A stretch of DNA of 64,000 bases from Gemmatimonadota bacterium (GTDB taxonomy: Bacteria > Gemmatimonadota > Gemmatimonadetes > Palauibacterales > KS3-K002). Position 1 is the first letter of the stretch, and each line of letters starts with the position of its first letter. The position numbers and the translations under genes are program-made. The notes beneath the pieces are model-generated. The model saw only the letters and a list, made by a program, of their open reading frames with translations. It had not been told where the DNA came from and did not search any database. The stretch is from the NCBI GenBank assembly GCA_039586495.1, contig JBDHKG010000020.1, positions 1,181 to 65,180 on the forward strand, in the 5' to 3' direction. Shown here piece by piece: positions 47,920-64,000 of this stretch.

Positions 47920-48531
47920 CTAGCCACCATACCTGCGGGCGATGATGGCGCCGAAGACGACATTGATCCCGCCAAAACCAGCCGCCATGAACGCGTTGCC
48001 CCATGCCGCTGGGGCGAGAAAAGCCCCGAGGCCCACCAGCATGAAGCAGACCCCCATGATCGGGACGGCTCTCACGGAGAACGCGCCGCCCGTCGTGACG
48101 CCCGTGCCATATAACAACAGCCAGGTGCCCGGCATGGCGTCGAAGAGGCGCGCCGAATAGAGGACCGCCGTGAGCACAGCGCCAGCGACCAGGGGAGGGC
48201 AGAGGCCGAAGACGAAGCGTGCGCCGGCGCCGCGCAGCAGCGGCGCCTTGACGGCTCTGGCTTTGAGAGCCATTGCGACGGCCCCGATGGCGATCGCCAG
48301 GGCAGCCTCGGCGAGCCAGGTGAGGAGCCAGGCGCTGGGGGTCATCTGGCGCGCGGCCAGTGCGGCGGCGGCGAACGCGGTCAGGCCGATGGCCAGGGTG
48401 CCCCACCCGGGGACGGCGGTGAAGGAGCTGGCGCGCGCCATGGTGTCGCGAATGAAGCGGAGGTCATCGAGGGCGCGGGACCGGGTGGGGGAGTGGCCGT
48501 TGCACTGGGGTTGAGAGCGTTCGTTGTTCAT
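47920..48531 (-). CDS. Integral membrane protein (hypothetical), probable partner of the wHTH regulator.
   Basis: 203 aa with five or six TM helices. No recognisable motifs. Confidence 0.5.
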
Positions 48532-48597
48532 GAGGGCTCAAAATAGGGGGTGGGGTTGGTGTTGTCAAGTACTTTGCATTGTAAAGGAGATAGGGGG

Positions 48598-48626
48598 TTG
48601 CGCACTCACGGTCTTCGGTTTATATT
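48598..48626 (+). promoter_or_regulatory. Candidate sigma70-type promoter (TTGCGC-17-TATATT) upstream of dnaE2.
   Basis: -35 TTGCGC at 48598..48603, a 17-nt spacer, then -10 TATATT at 48621..48626, in an AT-richer island. A palindrome AAGTACTT (48567..48574) and the CTTT-N7-AAAG dyad lie just upstream. Confidence 0.35.
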
Positions 48627-48638
48627 CGGTATCCCAGG

Positions 48639-48713
48639 GCGGAGGGGTGACCCACTCCCCCTACCTGCGAAGTGCCCCTCCGCTCTGGACCCACCTTGCG
48701 GTGGGCTTTTTTG
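48639..48713 (+). terminator. Leader or small-RNA-like structure: a 9-bp hairpin plus a canonical intrinsic terminator 39 nt upstream of the dnaE2 ATG.
   Basis: Hairpin 1 is gcggagggg (48639..48647) paired with cccctccgc (48675..48683). The terminator has stem cccacc (48690..48695), loop ttgc and stem ggtggg (48700..48705), then cttttttg (48706..48713). Confidence 0.55.
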
Positions 48714-48751
48714 TCGCCAGGGCTTACGGGCTTTATTCGGGACACTGGTTT

Positions 48752-51700
48752 ATGCCCTCATACGCCGAGCTCCACTGTCACTCCGCCTTCTCCCTCCTCG
48801 ACGGCGCCTCCACGCCGGAAGTCCTGGTTCGACGGGCGGTGGAGCTCGGCATCCGCGCCCTGGCGCTCACCGACCACGACGACCTGGGCGGCGCGGTGCG
48901 CTTCAGCCGGGCGGCCCGGGAGGCGGGATTGGAGGCGATCGTGGGGGCTGAGCTCACGATCGTGCCGCCGGAGGACGCTGCCGGTCCTCCCAACCATCTC
49001 ACGCTGCTGGCGCGGACCGCCGAGGGCTACGCGAACCTCTCGGAGCTGGTGACGCGGGGACGGTCGGGCACGGCGGGAACCCTCGCTTCATGTCGCGCGA
49101 CACGGGTTGGGATGTGTGACGGGCCACCGCGCTCCAAATGTCCGCTCGCGGCTCCCGCCGTGCCCTCCCTGTCGCGGAAAGGAGCCCGCCCCGAATCAAC
49201 TTCGAGAGTCCCCATCACGAACAGCTGGGCGCCGGACAGGGGGCGCCCACGGGTGACCTGGGAGGACCTGGCGGAGCTGGGATCCGGGCTCTTCGCCCTC
49301 ACGGGCTGTCCGCAAGGCGAGCTGGCCCGGCGGGTGCGGGCGGGCGATGGGAAGGGGACGCGGGAGCTGCTCGATTTCCTGCGGAGCGCCTTCCACGGCT
49401 ACTTGGCCGTGGAAGTCTGGGATCATGCGTTGCCGGAGGAACGGGCGCTGGCGGATCGCTTGCTGGAGCTGGCGGACCGCCAGGGGCTGCCGGCGGTGGC
49501 GACCAACGATGTGCACTATGCGCTGCCGTCGGGCCGAATCGTCCACGATCTGCTCACCTGCCTGCGCCATCAGGTGACGCTGGATGAGGCGGGCAGGCGG
49601 CTGCGCCCCAACGGCGAGTGGCATCTGAAGCCGTCCTCGGTGGTGTGGCGGCGCTGGCGCCAGCGGCCCGACGTGGTGGAGAACACCCACGGCGTCGCCG
49701 CCGAGTGTTCTTTCCGCTTGGCGGACCTCTCGCCGGCGATGCCGGGGTTCCAGGTGCCGCCCGGCGTGACGACGCAGGAGTATCTGGAGCGGTTGGTCTG
49801 GCGGGGTGCGCTGGAGCGCTACGGTGGGGCAGGGCAGGTGCGGAACGGCGATCCGATCTGCATTTCCGCTCCTGTGGAGGAGGGAGGAGTCGGGGAGATC
49901 GTCTCGCTCCACCGCTCGCAGCCTCCTGCGCCGCCCCCGGATCTCCAGCGCGGCCGCACGGTTGAGCGCGAGCCGCCGACCACCCCACCGGCCCTTGCAA
50001 AGGAAGTACTGCGGCCTGGCCGAGGCACGTCCAGGCACTTGAGCGAGGCGGGTCAAATCTGGAACAGTGACTCGAGTGGCGTGGTCGTTCCGACTAGGGA
50101 TGGGGCGCCGGATGGGTCGTCGAGCGTAACTCGCGAGCGGTGGAGCGAGATGATCCCACCGGCGCCCCGTCTAAACGGCGGCTCGGGTCTCAGGCAGCGA
50201 GTGCGTCGCCAGATCCGCCACGAACTCGAGGTGATCAAGCGCTTGGACCTGGCCGGGTACTTCCTCACCGTCTGGGACATCGTCCGCTTCGCCCGGCGCC
50301 AAGGGATCCTGTTGCAGGGACGCGGCTCGGCCGCCAACTCCTGCGTCTGCTACTGCCTGGGGATCACGGCGGTGGATCCCATCAAGTTCGAGCTGTTGTT
50401 CGAGCGCTTCCTCTCGGAGGAGCGGGGCGGCGCGCCCGACATCGATCTCGACATCGAGCACGAGCAGCGCGAGGAGGTGCTCCAGTACGTCTACCGCAAG
50501 TACGGCCGCGAGCGGGCGGCGATGGTCTGCGAGACGATCACCTATCGCGGCCGCTCCGCGGTGCGCGATGCCGCCCGCGTGCTCGGCTTTTCCACCGATG
50601 TGGCCGATCGACTGGCGGCGGAAGTGGAGCGCTGCGAAGCGGTAGAGGCGGCCGATGTGCTGGAGAACGGCGGACTGGCCGCCTGCGGGCTCGATCCGCG
50701 GGACCGTCGTGTCGCGGCGCTGGTCCACGTGGTGCGCGGGCTCGACCAACTACCGCGTCACCGCTCCATCCATGTAGGCGGCTTCGTCCTCACCGCGAGC
50801 CCACTCTCCCTGGTCGTCCCCATCGAGCCGGCGGCGATGCCGGAGCGCACCGTCATCCAGTGGGACAAGGACGACCTCGACTTCGTGGGCCTCATCAAGA
50901 TCGATCTGTTGGGCCTGGGGATGCTTACCTGCCTGGCGAAGGCGATCCGCTACATCCGCGAGACGCGCGGTGTGGCCATCGACCTGGCCCAGCTGCCGGC
51001 GGGCGACCCCGAGGTCTACCGGATGATCCAGCAGGCGGACACGGTAGGCGTCTTCCAGATCGAGAGCCGGGCGCAGATGAACTCGCTGCCGCGCTTGAAA
51101 CCCGGGGATTTCTACGATCTGGTCGTCCAGGTGGCGCTCATCCGGCCGGGCCCCATCCAGGGCGAGATGGTGCACCCCTATGTGCGGCGGCGGCGCGGCG
51201 AGGAGCCGGTGACGTATCTGCATCCGGATCTTGAGCCGATCCTCAAGCGGACGCTGGGCGTGCCGCTCTTCCAGGAGCAGGGGATGAAGGTCGCGGTGGC
51301 GATGGCGAACTTCACGCCGGGCCAGGCGGACGCATTGCGCCGGGCGATGGGGTTCAAGCGCTCGAGGGAGGCGATGGCGCTGATCGAGCCGGCGCTACGG
51401 GCGGGGATGACGGCGCGCGGGATCACCACAGACGTGCAGGATCAGATCGTCAAGCAGCTCACCGCCTTCGCCAACTACGGTTTTCCGGAGAGCCATGCGG
51501 CGTCATTCGCGCTCCTGGTCTACGCCTCGGCGTATCTCAAGCGCTACTACGCGCCCGAGTTCTACTGCGCGCTGCTCAACGCGCAACCGATGGGGTTCTA
51601 CGCGCCGGGGACGCTCGTTCATGATGCACGTCGCCACGGGGTCGAGATGCGGCCCGTCGATCTCGCGTACTCGAGCTGGGACTGCACGCTCGAACCCGGC

Positions 51701-52699
51701 ATCGAGGAAGACGGGGTGCGGCAGGGTCGTCTCGCTTCATGTCGCGCGGCACCGTGCCGATGTCGAAGGACCGGCGGGGGCGCTCCAAATGTCCGCTCAA
51801 CGACACCTGCCGCACCCCTGGACTCCGGGGACACGGCAGGAGATCCTCGAGCGGCCTTGTCACCACGAAAGGGAGGGCACGGCACCGACCCACGAGCGGA
51901 CATTTGGAGCGCCCCGGCCCGTCTCGTACACGTGCCCGAGTCGCGCGACATGAAGCGAGGGGTCGGTGCCGTGCCCGACCGGCCGGCTCTGCGGATCGGA
52001 CTGCGCTATGTGCGCGGGCTGGGCTCGAAGGCGGAGGAGAAGCTCAAGGCGGCATGGGAGGCCGGGGGACGTTTCCGGTCGGTGGAGGATGTGGTGCGGC
52101 GGTCGGGCCTCGGCCTCCCCTCCCTCAAGACGCTGGCGGAGGCCGGCGCCTTCCGGACGCTCTGGGGGCCGGGCCGGCGCTCCGCCCTCTGGGAGATGCT
52201 GGCGAAGCTCGCCCAGCGGCCACTGGCGCCGGTGGATTCGGCGCCTCATCCGTACCCGCACCCGAAACTGAAGGAGATGACCCGGGTCGAGTTCATCGCC
52301 GCCGATTACCTGACCACCGGACTCTGCACCCACGGGCATCCCATGGAGCACCTGCGGGCAACACTGCGCGCTCACGGTGTGGTCTCGGCCGAGGAGCTCA
52401 AGCGGGTCCGCAGCGGTCAGCGAGTGAAGGTGGCTGGCGTGGTGATCTGCCGGCAGCGGCCGGGCACCGCCAAAGGCGTGTGCTTCATCACTCTGGAGGA
52501 TGAGACCGGGTTCTCCAACTTCGTGGTCTACGCCGACCTGTTTCAGCGCTACCGCCGCACCATCGTCCGCTCACCGGTGCTCTTGATCGAGGGGATCGCC
52601 CAGCACGAGCAGGACGTGATCAACGTGCAGGCACGGCGGATCACCGCGATCGAGCCGACCGCGGGCGCCGACGTCATCGAGAGCCACGACTTTCACTGA
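48752..52699 (+). CDS. dnaE2: Error-prone DNA polymerase III alpha-subunit homolog (DnaE2/ImuC type), lengthened by three in-frame palindromic-element insertions.
   Basis: Starts MPSYAELHCHSAFSLLDGAS, the PHP domain. The polymerase core includes 'GFVLTASPL...IDLLGLGMLT...GVFQIESRAQM', and the OB-fold tail is 'VKVAGVVICRQRPGTAKGVCFITLEDETG'. The ORF-track start at 48524 is probably too long. Confidence 0.85.
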   Translation: MPSYAELHCHSAFSLLDGASTPEVLVRRAVELGIRALALTDHDDLGGAVRFSRAAREAGLEAIVGAELTIVPPEDAAGPPNHLTLLARTAEGYANLSELVTRGRSGTAGTLASCRATRVGMCDGPPRSKCPLAAPAVPSLSRKGARPESTSRVPITNSWAPDRGRPRVTWEDLAELGSGLFALTGCPQGELARRVRAGDGKGTRELLDFLRSAFHGYLAVEVWDHALPEERALADRLLELADRQGLPAVATNDVHYALPSGRIVHDLLTCLRHQVTLDEAGRRLRPNGEWHLKPSSVVWRRWRQRPDVVENTHGVAAECSFRLADLSPAMPGFQVPPGVTTQEYLERLVWRGALERYGGAGQVRNGDPICISAPVEEGGVGEIVSLHRSQPPAPPPDLQRGRTVEREPPTTPPALAKEVLRPGRGTSRHLSEAGQIWNSDSSGVVVPTRDGAPDGSSSVTRERWSEMIPPAPRLNGGSGLRQRVRRQIRHELEVIKRLDLAGYFLTVWDIVRFARRQGILLQGRGSAANSCVCYCLGITAVDPIKFELLFERFLSEERGGAPDIDLDIEHEQREEVLQYVYRKYGRERAAMVCETITYRGRSAVRDAARVLGFSTDVADRLAAEVERCEAVEAADVLENGGLAACGLDPRDRRVAALVHVVRGLDQLPRHRSIHVGGFVLTASPLSLVVPIEPAAMPERTVIQWDKDDLDFVGLIKIDLLGLGMLTCLAKAIRYIRETRGVAIDLAQLPAGDPEVYRMIQQADTVGVFQIESRAQMNSLPRLKPGDFYDLVVQVALIRPGPIQGEMVHPYVRRRRGEEPVTYLHPDLEPILKRTLGVPLFQEQGMKVAVAMANFTPGQADALRRAMGFKRSREAMALIEPALRAGMTARGITTDVQDQIVKQLTAFANYGFPESHAASFALLVYASAYLKRYYAPEFYCALLNAQPMGFYAPGTLVHDARRHGVEMRPVDLAYSSWDCTLEPGIEEDGVRQGRLASCRAAPCRCRRTGGGAPNVRSTTPAAPLDSGDTAGDPRAALSPRKGGHGTDPRADIWSAPARLVHVPESRDMKRGVGAVPDRPALRIGLRYVRGLGSKAEEKLKAAWEAGGRFRSVEDVVRRSGLGLPSLKTLAEAGAFRTLWGPGRRSALWEMLAKLAQRPLAPVDSAPHPYPHPKLKEMTRVEFIAADYLTTGLCTHGHPMEHLRATLRAHGVVSAEELKRVRSGQRVKVAGVVICRQRPGTAKGVCFITLEDETGFSNFVVYADLFQRYRRTIVRSPVLLIEGIAQHEQDVINVQARRITAIEPTAGADVIESHDFH
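49082..49180 (-). repeat. Truncated copy of palindromic MITE-like element family 1, inverted relative to the 51731 copy, inside dnaE2 and in-frame.
   Basis: The 18-bp terminus ctcgcttcatgtcgcgcg (49082..49099) is identical to 51731..51748. The inner box gcgctccaaatgtccgctc (49129..49147) is identical to the inner repeat of the full copy. ccgtgccctccc (49158..49169) is the reverse complement of gggagggcacgg in the full copy. The second half is missing. Confidence 0.7.
49897..50153 (+). mobile_element. Palindromic MITE-like element family 2 (~257 bp) inside dnaE2, in-frame.
   Basis: The terminal inverted repeats atcgtctcgctccaccgctcgc (49897..49918) and gcgagcggtggagcgagatgat (50132..50153) match at 21 of 22 positions. 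The element encodes a low-complexity ~90-aa Pro/Gly/Ser-rich insert ('...SLHRSQPPAPPPDLQRGRTVEREPPTTPPALAKE...') absent from typical DnaE2. Confidence 0.6.
51731..51959 (+). mobile_element. Full-length palindromic MITE-like element family 1 (229 bp, nested inverted repeats) inside dnaE2, in-frame.
   Basis: The outer TIRs are ctcgcttcatgtcgcgcg (51731..51748) and cgcgcgacatgaagcgag (51942..51959), an 18/18 match. The inner inverted repeats are ggggcgctccaaatgtccgctc (51778..51799) and gagcggacatttggagcgcccc (51894..51915), a 22/22 match. The central part has a further cctgccg...cggcagg dyad. The element encodes '...LASCRAAPCRCRRTGGGAPNVRSTTPAAPLDSGDTAGDPRAALSPRKGGHGTDPRADIWSAPARLVHVPESRDMKRG...' between the conserved DnaE2 segments 'SSWDCTLEPG' and 'PALRIGLRYVRGLG'. 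Confidence 0.75.
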
Positions 52700-55201: not shown

Positions 55202-56464
55202 ATGGGTATCCGAGAGCGCTACGCGCGTGAAGCGTTGATCTTCCTGCTTTGGTGCATCGCGCCATCCGTGGGATACGCCCAGGCCCAGGAAGGTACGTGT
55301 GTGAGCTGTCATTCCGGGCTGAGCGGTAACCTGGCCGAGCCTGTAGAGGAGTATGCGGCAAGCGTGCACGCAGCCAGGGGCTTCGGGTGCGTCTCTTGCC
55401 ACGGCGGCGACGCTCAGGAATTCAGTATGGCGGCGATGGACCCGAGCAGGGGGTATGTCGGCGTCCCGGAGCGCCAGCAGATTCCGACCCTGTGTGGCCG
55501 CTGCCACTCCGACGCGCAGTTCATGAGGCAGTACAATCCAGCGCTGCGTGTGGACCAGGTGGCCGAATACCTCACTTCGGTGCACGGCCAGCAGTTGATG
55601 CGGTCGAATGATGAGAGGGTCGCGACCTGCGTGAGCTGTCACCCTGCGCACGCGATCAAGCCGCCCTCGGACCCGACCTCCAGCGTCAACACGCTGAACG
55701 TGGCTCAGCTGTGCGGATCGTGCCACAGCGACCCGGACTACATGCAGCCGTACATGATCCCGACGGACCAGGAAGAGAGGTATCGGCAGAGCATCCACTG
55801 GCAGATGCTTTCTGTGGAGGGCGATCTCTCGGCGCCGACCTGCAATGACTGTCACGGCAACCACGGCGCGGCCCCGCCCGGGATCTCCTGGGTAGGTAAC
55901 GTCTGCGGTCAATGCCACACGGTGATGTCGGGTCTGTTCCAGGAGAGCCAGCACGCGCGTGTGCTCGCGATGCTGGGCTCTCCAGGCTGCGCCACCTGCC
56001 ACAGGAACCACGACATCCACGAGGCCGGGGACGAGTTGCTCGGTCTAGGGGAAGGTGCTGCCTGCGGGATGTGCCACGCGGAAGTGGATGCGGGCGGCGC
56101 CGTCGCGTCCGAGATGCGAAGCCTGATCGATTCGCTGCACAGGGAATTCGCGAAGGCCGACTCGGTTCTCGCGCGGGCCGAGCACGCGGGGATGGAGGTC
56201 AGCGAGGCTCAATTCGATCTTAACGCTGCCACGACCGCCTTGATCAGCGCGAGGGCGGCGGTGCACGGGTTCTCTGTTGACGCGGTGCGGCAAGAGGTCG
56301 CGGCCGGACTGGAGGTGACATCGCGGGCCTACGAGCGTGGCCAGAAGGCACTCGCCGATCTCCAATTCCGGCGCGTGGGTCTGGCGGTCTCGGTAACTAT
56401 CATTCTGCTGCTGATCGTCGGGCTCGTGCTCAAGATTCGACAGATCGAGCGAAAGACAGCGTAG
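55202..56464 (+). CDS. Nonaheme c-type cytochrome with a C-terminal membrane anchor; first gene of the bc-type complex operon.
   Basis: Nine CxxCH motifs (CVSCH, CVSCH, CGRCH, CVSCH, CGSCH, CNDCH, CGQCH, CATCH, CGMCH). C-terminal TM helix 'VGLAVSVTIILLLIVGLVL'. Confidence 0.85.
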   Translation: MGIRERYAREALIFLLWCIAPSVGYAQAQEGTCVSCHSGLSGNLAEPVEEYAASVHAARGFGCVSCHGGDAQEFSMAAMDPSRGYVGVPERQQIPTLCGRCHSDAQFMRQYNPALRVDQVAEYLTSVHGQQLMRSNDERVATCVSCHPAHAIKPPSDPTSSVNTLNVAQLCGSCHSDPDYMQPYMIPTDQEERYRQSIHWQMLSVEGDLSAPTCNDCHGNHGAAPPGISWVGNVCGQCHTVMSGLFQESQHARVLAMLGSPGCATCHRNHDIHEAGDELLGLGEGAACGMCHAEVDAGGAVASEMRSLIDSLHREFAKADSVLARAEHAGMEVSEAQFDLNAATTALISARAAVHGFSVDAVRQEVAAGLEVTSRAYERGQKALADLQFRRVGLAVSVTIILLLIVGLVLKIRQIERKTA

Positions 56465-56502
56465 CTGGTTTGGTGCGGGGCCAGCTTCCAGGGAGGAACG
56501 CG

Positions 56503-56958
56503 ATGGCTGAAAAGGTGGGAGCTGCCGGCCAGAGCCGGCGAGGCTTCGTCAACTGGATTCTAGGTACGGGCGTGGGAGGACTGCTGCTCGCCGTCCTCTA
56601 TCCGCTCAGCCGTTACCTGATTCCACCGGAGGTGGAGGAATCGACGGCCGGGACGGTCACGCTCGCGATCAAGCCGGAGGAGATTGCCGCGAACACCGGT
56701 CACATCTTCAAGTTCGGAAGCCAACCGGGGATTCTGATCCGGACACCGTCAGGTGAGCTGCGCGCGTTCTCGGCGACGTGCACACACCTGGCCTGCATCG
56801 TCCAGTACCGGAGTGATCTCGGGCGCATCTGGTGCGCCTGCCATAACGGACATTTCGACCTCAGCGGCCGGAACATCGAGGGGCCACCCCCGCGGCCGCT
56901 TGAGAGCTTTGCGGTGAACGTACGTGGGGAGCAGATCGTGGTGAGCAGGGACGTCTGA
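56503..56958 (+). CDS. Rieske [2Fe-2S] subunit of the cytochrome bc-type complex, with a Tat signal.
   Basis: Twin-arginine '[11 protein letters not shown]'. Box I 'CTHLAC' and box II 'CACH' are present. GGGAGG lies 6 nt upstream of the ATG at 56503. Confidence 0.85.
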
Positions 56959-56960
56959 CG

Positions 56961-58058
56961 ATGGGAACCCTCAAGCAGAAGTTCAGCGGTCTCTGGGGCT
57001 GGCTCGACGAGCGATTGGGGCTCGCCGATGTCGAGACGCTCGCCAAGAAAAAGGAGGTGCCGATCCACCGGCACACGGTCTGGTACTACCTGGGCGGGAT
57101 GACGCTCTTCCTCTTCCTGATACAGGTCGCCACTGGGATCTTGCTTCTCTTCTACTATCGCCCGAGCGCCGAGCACGCTTACGAGTCGGTGCAGTTCCTG
57201 ATGGCGGAGGTCGAGTTCGGTTGGCTGGTTCGCTCGATTCATTCGTGGGCGGCTAATCTGATGATCTTCACGGCCTTCCTGCACCTTTTCAGCGTCCTGC
57301 TCCTGAAAGCGTACCGCAGGCCCCGCGAGGTCACCTGGCTGTCTGGCGTGCTCTTGCTGGGGCTTGCCATGGGCTTCGGCTTCACCGGGTACCTGCTGCC
57401 CTGGAACGAGCTGGCGTACTTCGCGACGAGGGTCGGCACCCAGATCGTCGACGCGGTTCCGCTTGTCGGCCGGTTCGCCGGCCGAGTGCTCCGCGGCGGC
57501 GACGATGTCACGGGCGCGACCCTCACGCGCTTCTACGCCATCCACGTGGCTGTCCTGCCAATGGTGACGACTTTCCTGCTGGTCCTGCATCTGTTCATGG
57601 TCCAGAAACACGGGATGAGCGTGCCTCCGGATATGGAGCGCCAGGGCGGTGCGAAGGGCGCCATGCCGTTCTTCCCCCACTTCCTGCTCCGCGATCTGGT
57701 GGGCTGGCTTTCGGCGCTGGCGATCCTCGCTGCGCTAGCCGCCTATTTCCCGGCGGAGCTCGGCGAGAAGGCGGACCCCTTCGCGTCCGCGCCGGCAGGC
57801 ATCAAGCCGGAGTGGTACTTCATGTTCATGTTCCAGACGCTGAAGTACCTGCCGGCTCATATCCTCTGGATGGAGGGGGAGGCTGTCGGCATTGTCGCTT
57901 TCATGCTGGCCGGTCTGCTGCTGCTCATCATCCCCTTCCTGGACCGTCGCTCGGCGCGTGGCGAGCCGAGCCGGCTGTTCACGTGGATCGGCATCGTAAT
58001 TATCGTCTACATCATCATCCTGACCTATCTCGGCTACACGGCGAATCCTGCGGCCTAG
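56961..58058 (+). CDS. Cytochrome b subunit (fused b6 and subunit-IV type).
   Basis: Heme-ligating His in helices B and D ('[19 protein letters not shown]', '[23 protein letters not shown]'), a PEWY-region analog, and 8 TM helices. Confidence 0.88.
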
Positions 58059-58126
58059 CAGCGGTGAGGACTCGAAGCCGCCGGCCCGCTTGTCTGCTGT
58101 TGTACCAGGCAGCGCGACAGGGTCGG

Positions 58127-60112
58127 CTATCCCCCGCTCAGCGCAGGGATCTCGTGGCAGAGGACACAGTCCGCCGGAGCGTTGTGCTCGACCTTGTCGA
58201 CGTGACACACGGTACAGACCTGCCGGCTCCACTCAGTGATGTTGGCGACGCGCTCTCCGTGGCAGGGGGCGCAGCCACTGTGTGCGGCAGGCGGATGGAT
58301 CTGCATGACTCCGCCGCGGTGGCATGATAGGCAGGAGTTGTCTGGCTGGTGATGGCGATCGTGGCAACTCTCACAGCGTACGCCGCTGGCGCTCATCGCG
58401 GGCGCCTCATGGCACTGCGAGCAGCCCAAGCCCGCCTCGAGGTGCGTCTGGTGTGGGAAATCGCCGGTCTCGGTCGCCATCGCTGTCTGAGGGGCGCCGC
58501 CCGGGCCCGCGTGACACGCGGCACAGTTGAGCGGGTCGATCACGCGATGATGGCAGTTGTCGCAGCTTGATCTTCCGCGCAGGGTGATCCCGCCGTGCTC
58601 TTCCAAAGGCGTGTGGCACTCGGAACAGCCCAGTGCGGCTCGCTGAACGTGGGGGCCGTGGCTGAACGCTTGGCCCGCAAAGGCGCCCTCTTGCCCACCG
58701 ATACCGAGGTGGCACTGCAGGCAGGTGTTCTCGGCTAGCGCTGGCCCGAGGTCTAGGTCAGGGACGGAGTAGGTCAGTCGGCCGACCTCGACGGCCTGCC
58801 TGGCGAGTCCAAGGGAGGCGCGCAGCAGGTCGTCGGCGTAGCCGATGTTGTGGGCGCCCTTCCCGCGTTCCACGAGACCCACGTTCTCCTCGGCGAGCCT
58901 GAGAAGGCTATCGGCTCTGGCCCGGGTGCGCAGCGGCGCGCTGCCCAGTGTCTGCCGGGCCGCCCTGATGACGGAAGCGACCTCGCTCCGGCGTCGCTCG
59001 ATCTCCCTTTGCCAGTTGGGGAGAATGTTCGCGTAGCGGATGCCGTGGCAGGACATGCAGGTCGCTTCGCCAGCGCGCCGGACCTCCTCGTGGCCGGGAA
59101 CCTCCGCTGGCAGGCCGTGGCAGCTCTGGCAGAGCACGCGGGCCAGATACATGGAGCTGGGCCTGTTATCGGTGCCGTGCCCGCCCATGCCCGCATACAT
59201 GAGCCTCTGCTCGTTGTGGGCGCGCTGATGGCATGCCTGACAGTCGAGCTCGAACGTGGCGGCGAGGGACAGCACCCGATGCTGCATGGGCGTGTGGCAC
59301 TGCGTGCACTCGACCTTGTTCTCGGAGATGTGGAGTCGGTGAACGAGCGTGGTGTTCTCGAACTGACCCAGCCGTTCGGGCTCGTTATGGCAAATGAAGC
59401 AGCGATCCCGGTCCGCGGCACCCGAGCCGCTGATCACGTTCTCGTGGCACCCGGTACAGGAGATGAGGTTCCTCACGTACTCTCGGTGGTCGACCACGAA
59501 GCCTGCGGGCGAGGTGAAGCGTGGCGGTGAGGCGTGGCAGCCGGTGCAACCCGCGATGGGTTGACCCGCGGGCCGATCCTTGAAGTGACACAGGTAGCAG
59601 GTCTCTGCCGTGACCGTCACATGGGCGCCCTGCACGATCTGGGAGTGGCAGCTCGTGCAGCGCAGATTCTTGCCGCGCCGGAGCTCGCCCAGGTGGTGGG
59701 TGTGATCGAAGCGGACGCCCTCAAAATTCACCTCCCCTTCAAGCGCCCGCTCCGAGTGACAACCCGAGCGCAGACAGGCTGCATCCTCGATCTCCGCCCA
59801 CGGTCTGATCCCGTAGGTGCCGGTGATGTACTTGACGACCTGGTTGGCTGCCTGGAGCTTCCCCATCGCCTCCGCCCTGATCCCGGGCGCGTAGTGACAG
59901 TCGATGCATTTCACGCTGTTGTGAGACGAGCTTGCCCAGGAATCGTAATAGGGCCGCATGATGTGGCAGTTGGTGCAGAAGCTGGGCTGACCGCTGTACT
60001 CGATGAACCCTACTGTCCCGATCGCAGCCAGTATCACCAGCAGGATGCCCACCTGGATGGCGATCTTCAGAGGGTCGGAAAAGCGGTCCAGAAAACCCAT
60101 GAGAGGCGCCAT
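58127..60112 (-). CDS. Large multiheme c-type cytochrome (~21 CxxCH plus one CX4CH) with a NapC/NirT-like N-terminal TM anchor; last gene of the minus-strand bc-type operon.
   Basis: 661 aa. N-terminal TM 'IAIQVGILLVILAAIGTVGF' then 'CTNCH...CIDCH'. CxxCH motifs recur throughout, and 'CLRSGCH' is a CX4CH variant. Confidence 0.85.
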   Translation of the reverse strand: MAPLMGFLDRFSDPLKIAIQVGILLVILAAIGTVGFIEYSGQPSFCTNCHIMRPYYDSWASSSHNSVKCIDCHYAPGIRAEAMGKLQAANQVVKYITGTYGIRPWAEIEDAACLRSGCHSERALEGEVNFEGVRFDHTHHLGELRRGKNLRCTSCHSQIVQGAHVTVTAETCYLCHFKDRPAGQPIAGCTGCHASPPRFTSPAGFVVDHREYVRNLISCTGCHENVISGSGAADRDRCFICHNEPERLGQFENTTLVHRLHISENKVECTQCHTPMQHRVLSLAATFELDCQACHQRAHNEQRLMYAGMGGHGTDNRPSSMYLARVLCQSCHGLPAEVPGHEEVRRAGEATCMSCHGIRYANILPNWQREIERRRSEVASVIRAARQTLGSAPLRTRARADSLLRLAEENVGLVERGKGAHNIGYADDLLRASLGLARQAVEVGRLTYSVPDLDLGPALAENTCLQCHLGIGGQEGAFAGQAFSHGPHVQRAALGCSECHTPLEEHGGITLRGRSSCDNCHHRVIDPLNCAACHAGPGGAPQTAMATETGDFPHQTHLEAGLGCSQCHEAPAMSASGVRCESCHDRHHQPDNSCLSCHRGGVMQIHPPAAHSGCAPCHGERVANITEWSRQVCTVCHVDKVEHNAPADCVLCHEIPALSGG

Positions 60113-60118
60113 CCTCTG

Positions 60119-61381
60119 TCAGCTTTCTCCTTTCAACAGTACCCGCAGTTTGAACCAGGAGAGGATGATGGCGGAAAGCGCCAGGAACCAGATGAGAATG
60201 AGGATAAGCCTGTGTTCCCAGCGCTGCTCGGCGCTCACCTCCGCGGCTGCCCGCACATCCCGCGAGATCGAGGCCACCTGCCGACTCAGATCCTCGAGCG
60301 TTTCGAGTCCTAGGCTGTGTTGAGTCTGAGCCATCTGCATGTACGAGGTCAGCGCACTCTGGTAGCGAAACTCTACGTCCGAGACCTGCTGGCCGGCACG
60401 GGTGAGTTCTAGGATCGCCTCTTCGGCACTTCGCAGATCCTCGCTGGCACGTGTCACCTGTTCTTGGATCTCTACCCCGGCAAGAGCGGCGGGTTCTTCG
60501 GTGTCGTGGCAGTTCAGGCAGGTGGCCGCGACCCTTTCAGGATGCACTCGTTCGGTGCCGTGGTTGGAGTGGCAGGCGGTGCAGCCGGGCAGGACCCCGG
60601 CGCGGGCCGCGGCACCATGCGGTCCCGCGTCGAACGCGCGGCGAACCAGGACGTGGCATTGACCGCACACGTTCCCGATTTGGCTGACTGCCGGTGGTAG
60701 CGCCGCATGGGAACCGTGGCAGCCTACGCAGGTCGGTGCCGCGAAATTCTCTTTCTCGTAGAGCGCTACACCGTGGGTGCTTGCCCGGTGCGTCGTGACC
60801 TGGTCCGTGGTCAGGCCATACTTCGCCATCAACGCCGCCTGCTCGTGGCAGCGTGCGCAGGTGGCTGCGATGTTGGTGGGGTAGACGTTGCTGCGTGCGT
60901 CGTTGGGCGGCAGGATCATGTGCGCGTCGTGGCAGTCGGTGCAGGTAGGCGCATCGAAGTCCCGTTGCTCCAGCAATAGCCTGCCGTGCCGACTGGTGCG
61001 GTACTCGGCGAGCTGGCCCGCCGGCAAGCCGTACTGGCGCATCCGATCGGGGTCGGAGTGGCACGACGCGCACAGCTGCACCGTACGAATCTTGTCGGGC
61101 GACCCGATGTAGTTTGCGCCGGTGTGGGCGGTGGCGCGCTCGAACGCCCTCGGGTCCCCACCGTGGCAGTCGTGACAGCGGATGCCACGCTCGGAGTGCG
61201 CGCCGAGCAGGAACGCTCTCCGCTTGTCGGTGTGGCAGACAACACAGCTGTACTCAGGGTCGATGTCGAATTCGCGCTGCTGAGAAGGCACCGGCGAAGC
61301 CGTCGCTGTCTCAGCGTCGACGGACGCCGCCGCCAGAGCCAGCAGGGTGCTGGAAGTCAGTATCCACGGGCCCGCTCTCAC
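60119..61381 (-). CDS. Nonaheme c-type cytochrome, paralog of 55202..56464, with a C-terminal TM anchor.
   Basis: Nine CxxCH motifs. Segments collinear with the plus-strand paralog include 'CASCHSDPDRMRQYGL' ~ 'CGRCHSDAQFMRQYNP' and 'IGNVCGQCH' ~ 'VGNVCGQCH'. Confidence 0.85.
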   Translation of the reverse strand: MRAGPWILTSSTLLALAAASVDAETATASPVPSQQREFDIDPEYSCVVCHTDKRRAFLLGAHSERGIRCHDCHGGDPRAFERATAHTGANYIGSPDKIRTVQLCASCHSDPDRMRQYGLPAGQLAEYRTSRHGRLLLEQRDFDAPTCTDCHDAHMILPPNDARSNVYPTNIAATCARCHEQAALMAKYGLTTDQVTTHRASTHGVALYEKENFAAPTCVGCHGSHAALPPAVSQIGNVCGQCHVLVRRAFDAGPHGAAARAGVLPGCTACHSNHGTERVHPERVAATCLNCHDTEEPAALAGVEIQEQVTRASEDLRSAEEAILELTRAGQQVSDVEFRYQSALTSYMQMAQTQHSLGLETLEDLSRQVASISRDVRAAAEVSAEQRWEHRLILILIWFLALSAIILSWFKLRVLLKGES

Positions 61382-62640
61382 TGCTGGTCCTCCCTGTCGC
61401 CAGGGTTCTGGGAGCGTGAGTCACGCTCCGGTGTCTCTGCTTCGAGTTCTCGCGGAACGAACCGCTCGACCACGCCTTCAGATCGTAGGTGCGTGCCGGG
61501 CGGCAGCGACTCGAGCTGACGACCGGCCACCCAAGCGACGAGGAAGCCGGCGAAGAACACCAACCCGAGCGCCAGCGCGAGGGGCCTCTTACGCAGCCGC
61601 CGCTCAGGTCGGCGATCGAACAGGGGAAGCAACGCCAGGCTGATCCCCAACAATGTGAAGAGCGAGAAGCCCCACACACCGAGGTAGCGTATCAGAGCCA
61701 ACGCGACGTCCACGACGATCCATGAGGAAACGAGTTCCTCCGGGAGCTGGAACGGGTCGGCGGGGTCCCCCACCGCTCGCGGGTAGAGGGCTGCCAGGCT
61801 GAACGTTACGGCCAGGACCAGGATCCCGACGATGAACGAGCGCAAGAGATGATTCGGGAAAAACCGCGTCCCTTCGCCGGCGCTCGCTGTCGCTTCGGGA
61901 GGCGGGGCGATCCCGTGCCTTCGCACCAAATTGAAGTGGAACAGGAGCAGCGCGAAGGCTACCCAGGGAAGCAGGATCACGTGGAGGGCGAAGAAGCGGC
62001 TTAGGGTCGCGCCCGACACGATCACGTCGCCCTGCAGAACCGAAGCTGCGAGACTGAGCAGCGGCGCGCGCGACATGGTGCCCAGCACCTCCGTGACCGT
62101 CCAGTAAGCCCACTGATCCCAGGCCAGCAAGTAGCCGGTGGTACCGAAAGCCAGTACAACCAGCAGCAGGAGCACGCCTACCACCCAGTTCGTCTCGCGC
62201 GGCGGCTTGTAGGTCGCGTGAAAGAAGACGCGGGCCATATGGGCCAGTATCGCGAGCACGATGAGGTTTGCCGACCAGACGTGGAGGTTGCGGACCAGCC
62301 AGCCCATCGGAACCTCGGTAACGATGTACTGGATACTCGGGTAGGCTTCTTGCACCGAAGGCCGGTAGTAGAAGGACAGCAGCACACCGGTAACCACCAG
62401 GACGATGAAAAGCAGGTACGTGATGCCGCCGAGCGCATGGCGCCAGCCGACGTGACCCGCTAAGCGGTAGCCGAGCGCTTTGCGCAGTGCCTGATCGATT
62501 GGCAGGCTTCGGTCGATGCGGCCGTACAGCAGCCCCAGGAACCGCGCTACCCCGAGCAGCCCGGGATCGGTACTGGCCTTGAGGTCGGCCCAGAACTGGG
62601 CCAACCATCTGGCTCTTGGCTTCCGTTCTGAATCGTTCAC
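61378..62640 (-). CDS. Cytochrome b subunit, paralog of 56961..58058.
   Basis: '...SIQYIVTEVPMGWLVRNLHVWSANLIVLAILAHMARVFF...' is collinear with the plus-strand cytochrome b. 4-nt overlaps with both neighbouring genes. Confidence 0.85.
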   Translation of the reverse strand: MNDSERKPRARWLAQFWADLKASTDPGLLGVARFLGLLYGRIDRSLPIDQALRKALGYRLAGHVGWRHALGGITYLLFIVLVVTGVLLSFYYRPSVQEAYPSIQYIVTEVPMGWLVRNLHVWSANLIVLAILAHMARVFFHATYKPPRETNWVVGVLLLLVVLAFGTTGYLLAWDQWAYWTVTEVLGTMSRAPLLSLAASVLQGDVIVSGATLSRFFALHVILLPWVAFALLLFHFNLVRRHGIAPPPEATASAGEGTRFFPNHLLRSFIVGILVLAVTFSLAALYPRAVGDPADPFQLPEELVSSWIVVDVALALIRYLGVWGFSLFTLLGISLALLPLFDRRPERRLRKRPLALALGLVFFAGFLVAWVAGRQLESLPPGTHLRSEGVVERFVPRELEAETPERDSRSQNPGDREDQQ

Positions 62641-63098
62641 CTTTCTCCTTCCGAAACGTAGACGACACCGTCCCTGACAGACACGGAGTAGCGTCGAAGC
62701 GCCTGCATGGACAGGCCTGCAACTACATCTCCTCGCAGGTCATAGACCGTGTACCGGCACGGCGAATAGACTCGCGAGGACTCGGGGTCCCAGCGCAGGA
62801 TGCAGCCGTCGAACGGCGAGACCCCCTGCAGCGCGAAGTAGCGGAGAGAATCGGGCCGGATGACAAGAATGGTCTTCTCACCCCAGTTCCGCACCCGGCT
62901 GGACCCGACAGGGAAATCGGCCTCCCGGGCCACGCGAATCACCGGCTGAAGCTCAGGGATCTCGAGATGCTCGGAGGGGGCGACATAGAACGTGGTCGCT
63001 ATCGCCAGCAGCACGATCATCACGAGGATGACGCCGCCCAGGAGAAGTTCGGTGAAGCCGAATCGCGAAGTCCTCAGCTGTTTCTCCATTGCTTGCAT
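62637..63098 (-). CDS. Rieske-fold paralog lacking all four Fe-S ligands (pseudo-Rieske) but keeping the disulfide Cys pair. It has a degenerate Tat motif.
   Basis: Aligns with 56503..56958: 'SRFGFTELLLG' ~ '[11 protein letters not shown]' (RR to RF). Box I 'CTHLAC' becomes 'SPFDGC' and box II 'CACH' becomes 'SPCR'. Confidence 0.55.
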   Translation of the reverse strand: MQAMEKQLRTSRFGFTELLLGGVILVMIVLLAIATTFYVAPSEHLEIPELQPVIRVAREADFPVGSSRVRNWGEKTILVIRPDSLRYFALQGVSPFDGCILRWDPESSRVYSPCRYTVYDLRGDVVAGLSMQALRRYSVSVRDGVVYVSEGER

Positions 63099-63263
63099 AC
63101 GGTTGACGCGAAGCCGCGCAAACGGGTTCTCCGCAGGATCACCCGCAGCATCGGGAAGCGAGCTGAAACTACCACGCTTCCCCGAAATTGCGCCACCGGT
63201 TGAGGCGGCAAGCCGGTGAGCGTCAAGTCGCTTATCGTTCTGCCGACTTGCCCGGAGTCAGAC

Positions 63264-64000
63264 TTCCAGCCCGAGCCGCGTTTTCATCTGCTCAACCAGC
63301 CATTCCGCCTCAGATTTGTCTCGTATCGAGCTTCCCGCGTGCAGCCGCACCCCGTCGCGACGCACGAGCCGGATGTCATAGTACACCGTGTTGCCGGAGT
63401 GCATCCCGATCTTCAGCACGATGTCTTCGATGTCGTGAACTGGGATCTTGCGGGTGGGACCGAGGCCCAGGAGCCCACGGCAGATCTCGATGCCCCCCGA
63501 CGTGAGGGTGACGCGGGTGGTGCCGAGCCAGACTCTGATCAGCGCGTAGGCTAGCAGCAGGTCGAACGCGCCGAAGACGACAGGGAAGACGATCGGCGCG
63601 CCGAGTCGCGGGAGCGCGCGCGGGCGCGAAGAAGATCTCGGTGCGCCGCAGGCCGGAGGTGACGTAGATGCGGGAGTCGGGTGGTTGACGGTATTCGGCA
63701 GTGTATTCGGCTAGCGGCTCTTCCTCCTCGGGCGGCAAGGGGATCTCACTTGCCGGCGTCCGGAACACCGGGACCTCGAAGCCCGCGTGGTAGTCGACGC
63801 CCGGCACGGAGGCGCGAGCCTCGAGGCGCCAGAGGATCTCGCTACTGGGGTCACTCGCGTCGGTTTCCCTCGCGTTGAGGGGCAGCCGGAACGAGACGGG
63901 GATCGCTGTCGCGGTTCGCCCGACGTGCCCCGTCTCGGTGACCTGGCGTTCCTCCTGCCAGAGAATTCGCTCTCTCGTCGAGCTCTCCCCGCCGGAGCGG
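63264..64000 (-). CDS. Hypothetical membrane-anchored protein, partial: the N-terminus is beyond the window end. A frameshift is possible near 63600.
   Basis: The minus-strand frame from the window end reads '...ILWRLEARASVPGVDYHAGFEVPVFRTPASEIPLPPEEEEPLAEYTAEYRQPPDSRIYVTSGLRRTEIFFAPARA'. A +1 frame continues with 'LPRLGAPIVFPVVFGAFDLLLAYALIRVWLG...HDIEDIVLKIGMHSGNTVYYDIRLVRRDGVRLHAGSSIRDKSEAEWLVEQMKTRLGLEV*', ending near 63264. The switch sits at a cgcgcccgcgcgcgctccc run. Confidence 0.3.

What the first reader, a model, noticed from the sequence alone, without database searches (positions are those of the whole stretch)
58127..60112. About 22-heme cytochrome with a NapC/NirT-like anchor terminating the second bc-type operon, including a CX4CH site
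Very high heme density (21 CxxCH plus 'CLRSGCH') in 661 aa, with an N-terminal membrane anchor that starts a tetraheme-like 'CTNCH...CIDCH' module.

Proteins like this act as wires or conduits. Coupling one to a bc-type module is reminiscent of extracellular electron-transfer or hydroxylamine/nitrite-linked systems.
Basis: partly seen in the sequence, partly recalled or inferred. Interest (0 to 1): 0.5.

Follow-up and report, generated by a model that had tools for sequence, protein, structure and literature searches.

The report
22-heme cytochrome on degenerate bc operon
A membrane-anchored protein with 22 heme sites is the last gene of a respiratory operon, conserved across Gemmatimonadota, whose bc-type partner has lost its iron-sulfur cluster ligands and its quinol-site motif, so it probably moves electrons in an undescribed way.

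Summary
ORF 58127-60112 (-) encodes 661 aa with 21 CxxCH and one CX4CH. All 44 cysteines lie in heme motifs, and there is one N-terminal membrane helix.

The protein is a three-part fusion:
- an NrfH/NapC-type four-heme quinol-dehydrogenase module, with CxxCHxM at heme 1 and the CX4CH at heme 3;
- a module homologous to the NrfA-like half of the nonaheme cytochrome OcwA, including its three-helix bundle;
- a ten-heme c7/ActA-like tail.

No curated family covers the whole protein.

It belongs to a large uncharacterised family. The five distant relatives whose contigs were long enough to judge all lie in or beside Rieske/cytochrome b operons. In Gemmatimonadota MAGs the order Rieske-like, cytochrome b, nonaheme c, 22-heme c is essentially invariant.

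In this phylum the partners are degenerate:
- the Rieske-fold protein lacks all four cluster ligands and its twin-arginine signal;
- cytochrome b keeps both heme pairs but has lost PEWY.

A canonical bc operon lies convergent next to it.

The most likely function is the periplasmic heme wire, and probably the quinol site, of a new bc-derived membrane complex. The direction of electron flow and the end partner are unknown. I found no hydroxylamine, nitrite or anammox genes and no outer-membrane conduit in the 64 kb window.

The parts
58127..60112 (-). Gene for the 22-heme cytochrome c. It encodes 661 aa, or 657 aa if translation starts at the ATG at 60100.
   Evidence: ORF. Motif count. It is 100% identical to P0001, which was called from the second ATG.
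59999..60070 (-). N-terminal transmembrane helix (aa ~15-38). Arg10 and Lys16 precede it, which fits N-terminus in, heme domain out.
   Evidence: Hydropathy. AF2 helix 2-40. Orientation is inferred from the positive-inside rule.
59633..60073 (-). NrfH/NapC/NirT-type four-heme module (aa 14-160). Heme sites are at C46, C69, C113 (CX4CH) and C152.
59957..59977 (-). Heme site 1, CTNCHIM (CxxCHxM). Met52 aligns with Met49 of NrfH. Lys85 aligns with NrfH Lys82, and Gln91 with NrfH Asp89.
   Evidence: Alignment. M52 is invariant, and K85 and Q91 are at least 90% conserved, in alignments A2/A3. The roles of Lys82 and Asp89 are as cited in PMC4683180.
59756..59776 (-). CX4CH heme site (CLRSGCH, aa 113-119), the third site of the NrfH-like module.
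   Evidence: C113, C118 and H119 are invariant in 100 diverse family members.
58778..59467 (-). OcwA/NrfA-like module (aa ~216-445). Heme sites 8-12 (C238, C269, C291, C328, C352), Met321, His299 and the three-helix bundle at aa 363-444, which carries the invariant H421-N422.
58130..58765 (-). C-terminal ten-heme tail (aa 450-661) built of c7/c3/ActA-like units. It is found in this form in the Gemmatimonadota proteins.
   Evidence: Pfam Cytochrome_C7. ActA chains 8k9e_A, 6f0k_A and 6lod_A match aa 482-607. Other family members have different C-termini.
60119..61381 (-). Nonaheme cytochrome c (420 aa). Signal-peptide-like N-terminus and a C-terminal membrane anchor. It takes the position of cytochrome c1/f.
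   Evidence: Nine CxxCH and a helix at aa ~388. Present upstream of the 22-heme gene in 73/73 related loci.
61378..62640 (-). Cytochrome b (420 aa, b6 and subunit IV fused). The four heme-ligand histidines are kept. PEWY is replaced by SSWI.
   Evidence: Pfam. Alignment. 0/120 homologs have P[ED]W[YF], and 120/120 keep H120, H134, H220 and H235.
62637..63098 (-). Rieske-fold membrane protein (153 aa) with none of the four 2Fe-2S ligands. The disulfide cysteine pair is kept. The twin-arginine motif is lost.
   Evidence: Alignments. 0/113 homologs have CxH..C or CxCH. AF2 pLDDT 88.7, and the best fold match is the Chlorobaculum bc-complex Rieske protein 8hn2_A. An RR motif is found in 1/113 homologs, against 19/21 of the canonical paralog.
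55202..58058 (+). Convergent canonical bc-type operon: nonaheme c (55202-56464), Rieske protein with CTHLAC/CACH and an RR signal (56470-56958), and cytochrome b with PEWY (56961-58058).
   Evidence: It lies next to the degenerate operon in several related genomes.

Best explanation
Shown by sequence and homology:
- The gene encodes an inner-membrane-anchored, periplasm-facing cytochrome c with 22 covalent heme sites.
- It is a fusion of three parts. Part (i) is an NrfH/NapC-type module with one membrane helix and four hemes. Heme 1 has the CxxCHxM signature of the quinol-site heme of NrfH, and the NrfH Lys82 equivalent is conserved.
- Part (ii) is a stretch of three further hemes followed by a five-heme module homologous to the NrfA-like half of OcwA, ending in a three-helix bundle.
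- Part (iii) is a ten-heme c7/ActA-like tail.
- Parts (i) and (ii) form a 12-heme core shared by a large uncharacterised family.
- The gene is the last of a translationally coupled operon. The other three genes encode a Rieske-fold protein without cluster ligands, a cytochrome b that keeps both b hemes but has no PEWY motif, and a C-terminally anchored nonaheme cytochrome c.

Inferred:
- The four proteins form one membrane complex derived from a Rieske/cytochrome b complex.
- The canonical Qo site and its Rieske cluster cannot work in this complex. Exchange with the quinone pool on the periplasmic side therefore most likely takes place at heme 1 of the NrfH-type module.
- The mainly bis-histidine heme chain then carries electrons through the periplasm to or from partners encoded elsewhere.
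- The two b hemes provide a transmembrane branch to a cytoplasmic-side quinone site.
- The direction of flow and the end acceptor or donor are not known.
For: Heme motifs and their conservation:
- Motif count and position.

NrfH-type module:
- Pfam above its cut-off.
- PDB sequence and fold matches.
- M52 is invariant, and K85 is at least 90% conserved, across 100 diverse relatives.

OcwA/NrfA-like module:
- Profile E 6e-24, with five aligned heme motifs, Met321 and the H421-N422 bundle motif.

Electron-transfer character:
- 23 non-motif histidines are conserved at 95% or more in 119 orthologs. That is enough for bis-His ligation of nearly all hemes. There is no CxxCK.

One operon:
- 4-nt overlaps between genes.
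- Gene order kept in 73/73, 65/67 and 65/65 related loci.
- The five distant relatives with informative contigs, at 35-43% identity, are also in or beside Rieske/cytochrome b operons.

Degenerate Qo branch:
- Rieske ligands absent in 69/69 and 113/113 homologs, on a confirmed Rieske fold.
- Twin-arginine signal lost in 112/113.
- PEWY absent in 120/120, while all four b-heme histidines are kept in 120/120.

A separate intact bc operon lies alongside.
Against: - There are no experimental data for any member of the family.
- Distant relatives keep intact Rieske boxes and PEWY/PDWY together with the NrfH-like protein. The NrfH-type site is therefore not simply a substitute for Qo, and it may be only an anchor.
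- NrfH Asp89 is replaced by a conserved Gln.
- The NCBIfam NrfH model scores far below its cut-off, 54 against 134 bits.
- The window holds no further multiheme ORF, and I found no terminal reductase or outer-membrane conduit in the parts I annotated.
- The AF2 model has no hemes, so heme-to-heme geometry, the length of the chain and subunit contacts are untested.
- His299 aligns with the distal His-His motif of the open-coordination heme 5 of OcwA. One heme may therefore be a substrate site and not a relay.
Confidence: 0.55

Rival explanations
1. Acceptor-only wire. Quinol is oxidised by the cytochrome b subunit at a remodelled site. Electrons pass through the nonaheme subunit into the 22-heme protein. 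The NrfH-like part of that protein serves only as a membrane anchor and heme relay.
For: Distant relatives combine the same family with intact Rieske boxes and PEWY/PDWY. There the bc core can do the quinol chemistry itself. Asp89 of NrfH is not kept. The gene order places the nonaheme gene between cytochrome b and the 22-heme gene.
Against: In this lineage the Rieske cluster ligands and PEWY are gone in every homolog. No known quinol-oxidising site therefore remains in the b subunit on the periplasmic side. The invariant CxxCHxM and the conserved Lys across the whole family are hard to explain for a mere anchor.
Confidence: 0.2
2. Membrane-bound reductase. The core is in effect an NrfH-NrfA-type pair fused into one chain. 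Heme 8 (C238) would be an open-coordination site, as heme 5 is in OcwA, and would reduce a soluble periplasmic substrate such as nitrite, hydroxylamine, a chelated metal or a shuttle.
Against: There is no CxxCK. The protein has a single His where OcwA has His-His. The NrfA Arg/Tyr/His residues were not tested. There are enough conserved histidines for every heme to be six-coordinate. I found no nitrogen- or sulfur-cycle genes nearby. OcwA's own nitrite turnover is very low.
Confidence: 0.15
3. Inward electron uptake. The heme chain collects electrons from a periplasmic or extracellular donor and passes them through the nonaheme subunit and the two b hemes to a cytoplasmic-side quinone site. 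This would be a redox half-loop, like formate dehydrogenase-N, that builds membrane potential.
For: Both b hemes are kept while the periplasmic quinol site is lost. In one relative a NiFe hydrogenase cluster lies directly upstream. Other relatives carry extra multiheme genes, a b561-like gene and a ~500 aa protein with a signal-peptide-like N-terminus and no Pfam match, which could be a barrel protein, downstream.
Against: This does not explain the conserved NrfH-type quinol signature. No donor-oxidising enzyme was found in this window. The quinone site on the cytoplasmic side was not examined.
Confidence: 0.1

Closest known systems
NrfH / NapC / NirT / CymA tetraheme quinol dehydrogenases (PDB 2j7a chain C)
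   Same: One N-terminal membrane helix and four heme sites in about 150 aa. CxxCHxM at heme 1. The Lys82 equivalent is present. Sequence and fold matches.
   Different: It is only the first quarter of the protein. The third site is CX4CH. Asp89 is Gln. There is no NrfA or other reductase gene next to it. The NCBIfam equivalog scores are far below cut-off.
OcwA of Thermincola potens (PDB 6i5b) and the NrfA / octaheme nitrite reductase / MccA / HAO group
   Different: OcwA is a soluble cell-surface nonaheme protein of a Gram-positive bacterium. Its N-terminal half is c554-like. Here the N-terminal half is NrfH-like and membrane-anchored, and ten more hemes follow the bundle. There is no CxxCK.
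Geobacter ext (Cbc6) cluster: ExtM 12-heme, ExtN 10-heme, ExtO Rieske, ExtP cytochrome b, ExtQ (PMC2825233, PMC5877670)
   Same: A Rieske/cytochrome b core is encoded together with two large multiheme cytochromes, one of about 420 aa and one of about 600 aa. Both cytochromes b here score best to the ExtP and b6 models.
   Different: The ExtM and ExtN models do not match the 22-heme protein. The gene order differs. ExtO is annotated as a genuine Rieske Fe-S protein. The rhodanese, porin and selenoprotein genes of that cluster were not found here.
Rieske/cytochrome b complexes with multiheme subunits in anammox bacteria and Methanoperedens (PMC12954380, PMC4683180)
   Same: These are non-canonical bc complexes in organisms that carry several such complexes. 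Multiheme c subunits replace cytochrome c1/f. The Kuenenia Rieske protein kuste4569 is the second-best fold match of the Rieske-like protein here.
   Different: Those complexes keep their Rieske clusters. I found no HAO-like, NAD(P)-linked or nitrate reductase genes here.
ActA, the pentaheme subunit of alternative complex III (PDB 8k9e, 6f0k, 6lod, 6btm)
   Same: aa 482-607 align with ActA (E 8e-6). Some relatives have a small multiheme, 4Fe-4S and NrfD trio directly downstream, which resembles the ActA-B-C core.
   Different: The similarity is partial and of the c7 type. No ActB-F genes were found in this window.

Membership tests
NapC/NirT/NrfH quinol dehydrogenase family | Single N-terminal membrane helix followed by four c-heme sites in about 150 residues | tested here: met
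   Helix at aa 15-38. Sites at C46, C69, C113 and C152. PF03264 covers aa 17-159 at 39.5 bits against a cut-off of 24.1. The third site is CX4CH, not CxxCH.
NapC/NirT/NrfH quinol dehydrogenase family | Heme 1 CxxCHxM (Met ligand) and the Lys82 / Asp89 quinol-site residues of NrfH | tested here: inconclusive
   Met52 and Lys85 align and are conserved. Asp89 is replaced by a conserved Gln91.
NapC/NirT/NrfH quinol dehydrogenase family | Curated equivalog score (NrfH, NapC, TorC models) and an adjacent partner reductase gene | tested here: not met
   NrfH scores 54.3 against 134.2 bits. The napC_nirT model scores 20 against 310 bits. No nrfA, nap or tor gene was found nearby.
NrfA / octaheme / OcwA multiheme cytochrome group | NrfA-type five-heme core followed by a three-helix bundle | tested here: met
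NrfA / octaheme / OcwA multiheme cytochrome group | Catalytic open-coordination heme (CxxCK in NrfA; the His-His pocket in OcwA) | tested here: inconclusive
   There is no CxxCK. The invariant His299 aligns with the OcwA His-His motif but is a single His. Coordination cannot be read from sequence.
Rieske/cytochrome b (bc1/b6f-type) complex (the operon) | Cytochrome b with two bis-His b hemes | tested here: met
   H120, H134, H220 and H235 are kept in 120/120 homologs, with b6-type spacing. PF00033 scores 153 bits.
Rieske/cytochrome b (bc1/b6f-type) complex (the operon) | Rieske subunit with CxH...CxxH 2Fe-2S ligands | tested here: not met
   The boxes read S-P-x-D-G-C and S-P-C-x-Y/H. 0/69 and 0/113 homologs have the ligands. 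The fold is Rieske.
Rieske/cytochrome b (bc1/b6f-type) complex (the operon) | Qo-site PEWY motif in cytochrome b | tested here: not met
   The motif is SSWI here, and 0/120 homologs have P[ED]W[YF]. The neighbouring paralog has PEWY.
Geobacter ExtM / ExtN cytochromes | Match to NCBIfam NF040943 (ExtM) or NF040967 (ExtN) | tested here: not met
   The 22-heme protein gives no hit at E <= 0.01. Relatives give only hits of 22 bits or less.
MtrA/DmsE and OmcA/MtrC decaheme families | Curated model scores | tested here: not met
   The DmsE family model scores 32 against 192 bits. PF22113 scores 24.7 against 30 bits.
Alternative complex III, ActA | Pentaheme ActA encoded with ActB-F | tested here: not met
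   Only a partial c7-type similarity, aa 482-607. No act genes were found in the window.
Anammox kuste45xx bc-linked cytochromes | Sequence similarity to the hexaheme/octaheme subunits, and an HAO-like neighbour | not tested
   No kuste sequences were at hand. The window has no multiheme ORF other than the three in these two operons.

The most novel reading that the evidence does not exclude
A phylum-wide, bc-derived respiratory complex has moved quinol chemistry off the Qo/Rieske site and onto an NrfH-type heme. It keeps the two b hemes as a transmembrane wire and keeps a cluster-free Rieske protein as a structural subunit. The 22-heme chain would be long enough to reach across the periplasm. 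This would be a third way of building a 'complex III', beside bc1/b6f and alternative complex III.
Probability: 0.2. Interest if true: 0.85.

Novelty: new variant of a known kind. Interest (0 to 1): 0.6.

Why it matters
Rieske/cytochrome b complexes are defined by the bifurcated oxidation of quinol at the Qo site. That reaction needs the Rieske cluster.

Here is a conserved lineage of such operons under evident selection. Homologs of the Rieske-like protein and of cytochrome b were found in over a hundred protein clusters each, at 49-94% and 62-94% identity. Yet the cluster ligands, the Tat signal and PEWY are all gone, and the b hemes stay.

The operon always ends in a fusion of an NrfH-type quinol module with an OcwA/NrfA-type module and a heme tail. 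If the complex is active, it shows how a bc complex can be rewired into a different kind of quinone-to-multiheme machine.

It would also give Gemmatimonadota an unrecognised respiratory route. These bacteria are common in soils and sediments and are little studied physiologically.

A practical point follows. Public annotation calls the degenerate subunit 'Rieske (2Fe-2S) protein' and calls the 22-heme protein 'NapC/NirT family' or 'cytochrome c3 family'. Both names hide what is there.

Tried and rejected
- NCBIfam and Pfam gave no family for the whole protein. The ExtM and ExtN models do not match.
- The single-sequence PDB search missed OcwA. Only the family profile found it.
- Foldseek against the PDB found only NrfH for the whole model.
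- The afdb50 fold library was not available.
The Rieske-like model therefore used database homologs.
- The promoter and terminator scan of 57800-64000 was uninformative. It gave 0 promoter-like sites and one weak terminator-like site, below the shuffle expectation.
- Eight literature searches found no description of this family or of a cluster-free Rieske subunit in a bc operon.
- The contig for the 29-heme relative P0153 was too short to show context.
- Cluster look-ups gave almost no names. One 12-heme member comes from Candidatus Tectomicrobia.
- I rejected a pseudogene or decaying operon. Motifs, gene order and reading frames are conserved in about 70 species-level genomes.
- I rejected a direct hydroxylamine, nitrite or anammox link for lack of any such gene.
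- I could not measure the length of the heme chain, because model coordinates are not exposed.
Full report
**1.

The minus-strand ORF 58127..60112 encodes 661 aa. It has 21 CxxCH motifs and one CX4CH (CLRSGCH, aa 113-119). There is no CX3CH and no CxxCK. All 44 cysteines lie inside these 22 motifs. One hydrophobic helix lies at aa ~15-38.

Shuffling the same residues gives on average 0.19 CxxCH, with a maximum of 3 in 2000 trials. Of the 120 closest database homologs, 116 have exactly the same 21 + 1 motifs and 44 Cys.

Gene callers on the source metagenome contigs start the protein four residues later, at the ATG at 60100, which gives 657 aa. That does not affect anything else.

The gene is the last of four tightly packed minus-strand genes: 62637-63098, 61378-62640, 60119-61381 and 58127-60112. 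The first two junctions overlap by 4 nt and the last has a 6 nt gap.

**2. What the protein is made of**

*The NrfH-type module, aa 1-160*
- Pfam places the NapC/NirT N-terminal family on aa 17-159, at 39.5 bits against a cut-off of 24.1.
- The NCBIfam NrfH model matches aa 20-159 but far below its cut-off, 54 against 134 bits.
- The NrfH chain of the Desulfovibrio NrfHA structure is the best single-sequence PDB match (2j7a_C, aa 14-109).
- It is also the only confident Foldseek match of the AlphaFold model (probability 1.00, TM 0.53 on the target).
- In the sequence alignment, Met52 of CTNCHIM falls on Met49 of NrfH, Lys85 on Lys82 and Gln91 on Asp89.
- Lys82 and Asp89 are the residues cited as conserved quinol-site residues of NrfH in PMC4683180. 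That Met49 ligates heme 1 in NrfH is established knowledge.
- The CX4CH is the third of the four heme sites of this module.

*The OcwA/NrfA-like module, aa ~216-445*
- A profile built from 36 diverse family members matches the nonaheme cytochrome OcwA of Thermincola potens (6i5b_A) with E 6e-24. The match runs over profile positions 216-442 and OcwA residues 262-499.
- Five heme motifs align with heme sites 8-12 of the protein here (C238, C269, C291, C328, C352).
- A conserved Met (Met321) and the 'G-x-H-N' motif of the helix bundle (H421-N422 here) also align.
- The AlphaFold model has mean pLDDT 81 and pTM 0.59. It shows a three-helix bundle at aa 363-444 with pLDDT about 97.
- According to the OcwA paper, hemes 5-9 of OcwA superimpose on the NrfA heme core. 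Heme 5 has an open distal site under a His-His motif, heme 9 is His-Met, and the protein ends in a three-helix bundle (PMC6703420).
- The invariant His299 here aligns with that His-His motif.

*The C-terminal tail, aa 450-661*
- This part holds ten heme sites. Its matches are of the c7/c3 type. The ActA subunit of alternative complex III matches aa 482-607 (E 8e-6).

*Ligands*
- Across 119 orthologs, 23 non-motif histidines are conserved at 95% or more, together with Met52, Met83, Met321 and Met573.
- That is enough for nearly every heme to be six-coordinate, as expected for an electron relay.

**3. The family**

A search of 1.84 billion representative proteins finds 2566 clusters at E <= 1e-3 and 398 at E <= 1e-30.

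Members share the N-terminal 'FCxxCHxMxPYY..W' signature and a 12-heme core of 11 CxxCH plus the CX4CH in about 450 aa. Beyond the core, the totals run to about 17-18, 21-22 or 27-31 hemes.

In alignments of 36 and 100 members, all core heme motifs are invariant, as are M52, H64, H137, H140, H164, H258, H261, H278, H299, H421 and N422.

No Pfam or NCBIfam model covers the family. Sources name it only 'NapC/NirT family cytochrome c', 'cytochrome c3 family protein' or 'nitrate/TMAO reductase-like tetraheme cytochrome c subunit'.

**4. The link to bc-type genes is conserved**

A scan of one genome per GTDB species found at least 594 stretches that encode a relative. The 80 best are full-length orthologs at 54-75% identity. 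All come from Gemmatimonadota MAGs except one contig binned as Akkermansiaceae.

Among these 80 loci, wherever enough upstream DNA is present:
- the nonaheme gene precedes the 22-heme gene in 73/73;
- cytochrome b is present in 65/67;
- the Rieske-like gene is present in 65/65.

Six more distant relatives, at 35-43% identity, were looked up. The five with informative contigs all lie in or beside Rieske/cytochrome b operons, next to a cytochrome of about 415-500 aa with 8-9 CxxCH. They are a TARA ocean contig, a Tectomicrobia MAG, and three others of unknown taxon. The sixth contig was too short to show context.

It is not met.

**5. The bc-type partner in this lineage is degenerate**

I think it is the most interesting point.

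*The Rieske-like protein*
- The 153-aa first gene product has a membrane helix and a domain that AlphaFold folds with pLDDT 88.7.
- Its best structural matches are the Rieske proteins of the Chlorobaculum bc complex (8hn2_A, E 2e-8, TM 0.78), Kuenenia kuste4569 and spinach b6f.
- Where its canonical paralog next door reads CTHLAC and CACH, it reads SPFDGC and SPCRY. Both cluster cysteines and both histidines are gone. The two cysteines left are the ones that form the disulfide in canonical Rieske proteins, by established knowledge.
- None of 69 locus-derived homologs and none of 113 database homologs has either box.
- The twin-arginine export motif is present in 19/21 homologs of the canonical paralog and in 1/113 of these. 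That is what one expects once no cofactor has to be inserted before export.

*Cytochrome b*
- The 420-aa cytochrome b keeps all four b-heme histidines in 120/120 homologs, with b6-type spacing.
- The Qo-site PEWY is replaced by S-(S/T)-W-(I/V) in 120/120 homologs.

*Ancestral state and the paralog*
- The distant operons keep the Rieske boxes and PEWY/PDWY (three of four checked by pattern). Their nonaheme genes are closer to the nonaheme of this operon than to that of the canonical one.
- The intact state therefore looks ancestral, and the loss looks derived within Gemmatimonadota.
- An intact paralogous operon lies convergent at 55202-58058. It encodes a nonaheme c, a Rieske protein with ligands and an RR signal, and a cytochrome b with PEWY. 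It is next to the degenerate operon in several relatives.

**6. How it most likely works**

The steps in sections 2 to 5 are shown by sequence and homology. What follows is inference.

- The canonical periplasmic quinol site needs PEWY and the Rieske cluster, so it cannot operate.
- The only recognisable quinone-interacting element left on that side is the NrfH-type heme 1 of the 22-heme protein. Its Met and Lys signatures are conserved across the whole family.
- I therefore take the four products to form one membrane complex. Quinol or quinone is handled at the NrfH-type site, the mostly bis-His chain of 22 hemes relays electrons in the periplasm, and the b hemes give a transmembrane branch.
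- My confidence is about 0.55 for this general picture and much lower for any detail.

Points against:
- Distant relatives carry the NrfH-like protein together with an apparently functional bc core. The NrfH-type site may therefore be only an anchor (rival 1).
- His299 aligns with the distal motif of the open heme of OcwA, so heme 8 may be a substrate site (rival 2).
- Keeping the b hemes without a Qo site also fits inward electron flow to a cytoplasmic-side quinone site (rival 3).

Context that bears on the end partner:
- This window has no multiheme ORF other than the two nonahemes. I saw no outer-membrane conduit and no nitrogen- or sulfur-cycle enzyme in the parts I annotated.
- In 28 of 64 related loci another multiheme gene follows directly. 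In some of these it comes with a b561-like membrane cytochrome, a ~500 aa protein with a signal-peptide-like N-terminus and no Pfam match, and a further multiheme cytochrome.
- In two loci the 22-heme gene is followed by a small multiheme, 4Fe-4S and NrfD trio.
- In one locus a NiFe hydrogenase cluster lies upstream.

Extracellular or periplasm-spanning transfer is thus plausible in relatives, but it is not shown here.

**7. Comparison with what is known**

- The closest architectures are the Geobacter ext/Cbc6 cluster and the multiheme-bearing Rieske/cytochrome b complexes of anammox bacteria and Methanoperedens. The ext cluster has 12-heme ExtM, 10-heme ExtN, Rieske ExtO, cytochrome b ExtP and ExtQ (PMC2825233; PMC5877670). 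The Methanoperedens complex is described in PMC4683180. The anammox paper PMC12954380 was seen only as a title and abstract.
- The ExtM and ExtN models do not match the 22-heme protein, and those complexes keep their Rieske clusters.
- The protein passes the fold and Pfam tests for the NapC/NirT family. It fails the equivalog scores and has no partner reductase gene.
- It shares a homologous module with OcwA/NrfA but has no CxxCK.
- The operon fails two defining features of a Rieske/cytochrome b complex.
- Eight full-text searches found no description of this family or of a cluster-free Rieske subunit in a bc operon. The library does not cover most subscription journals.

**8. Verdict**

I classify the finding as a new variant of a known kind: a multiheme-linked, bc-derived quinone complex. 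It has two unreported features:
- an NrfH-OcwA-c7 fusion with 22 hemes;
- a conserved partner module that has lost the Rieske cluster, the Tat signal and PEWY.

Interest is 0.6.

Noticed in passing
window 49077-49189, 49886-50166, 51714-51976: Several imperfect palindromic repeats (arms of 30-78 nt, 79-93% complementary) lie inside the long DnaE2-like ORF at 48524-52699. That ORF is 1391 aa, which is unusually long. Gene callers on the source contig call only a 249-aa C-terminal fragment there. This suggests small repeat elements inserted in the coding region.
   Followed up: partly
window 63376-64000 (minus strand, runs off the end): The gene upstream of the operon encodes a membrane protein with no Pfam match. 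It is 414 aa on the source contig and 474 aa in a related complete genome. The C-terminal 90 aa or so of the copy here differ completely from the relative and are Arg/Pro/His-rich, as after a frameshift or an assembly error.
   Followed up: partly
L004 11962-17055, L003 11994-17048 and similar loci: Many related Gemmatimonadota carry extra genes directly after the 22-heme gene. These are a ~430 aa multiheme cytochrome, a 283-aa b561-like membrane cytochrome, a ~500 aa protein with a signal-peptide-like N-terminus and no Pfam match that could be a barrel protein, and a ~480 aa multiheme cytochrome with an MtrC/MtrF-type domain hit. The set could be a porin-cytochrome-like extension. It is absent from this window.
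   Followed up: partly
L001 12302-15105; L093 7722-10442: In two genomes a small multiheme cytochrome, a 4Fe-4S protein and an NrfD-type membrane protein follow the 22-heme gene. This adds a second quinone-interacting module to the same cluster.
   Followed up: no
L002 1-5745: A NiFe hydrogenase gene set with maturation genes lies directly upstream, on the opposite strand, of the degenerate bc-type operon in one 1.1 Mb Gemmatimonadales contig.
   Followed up: no
window 62637-63098 and its database homologs (P0278, P0285, P0290): Public records name the cluster-free protein 'Rieske (2Fe-2S) protein' or 'nitrite reductase/ring-hydroxylating ferredoxin subunit', although none of 113 homologs has the cluster ligands. 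This is an annotation error that propagates.
   Followed up: yes
L072 (CAXMRU010000218.1): One contig with the complete four-gene operon, 58% identical, is binned as Akkermansiaceae. The other 79 best loci are all Gemmatimonadota, so this is probably a binning error and not a transfer.
   Followed up: no
L085 2508-3644, L086 3566-4702: In a marine relative a citrate synthase gene sits between the two halves of the split cytochrome b gene, inside the Rieske / cytochrome b / multiheme operon.
   Followed up: no
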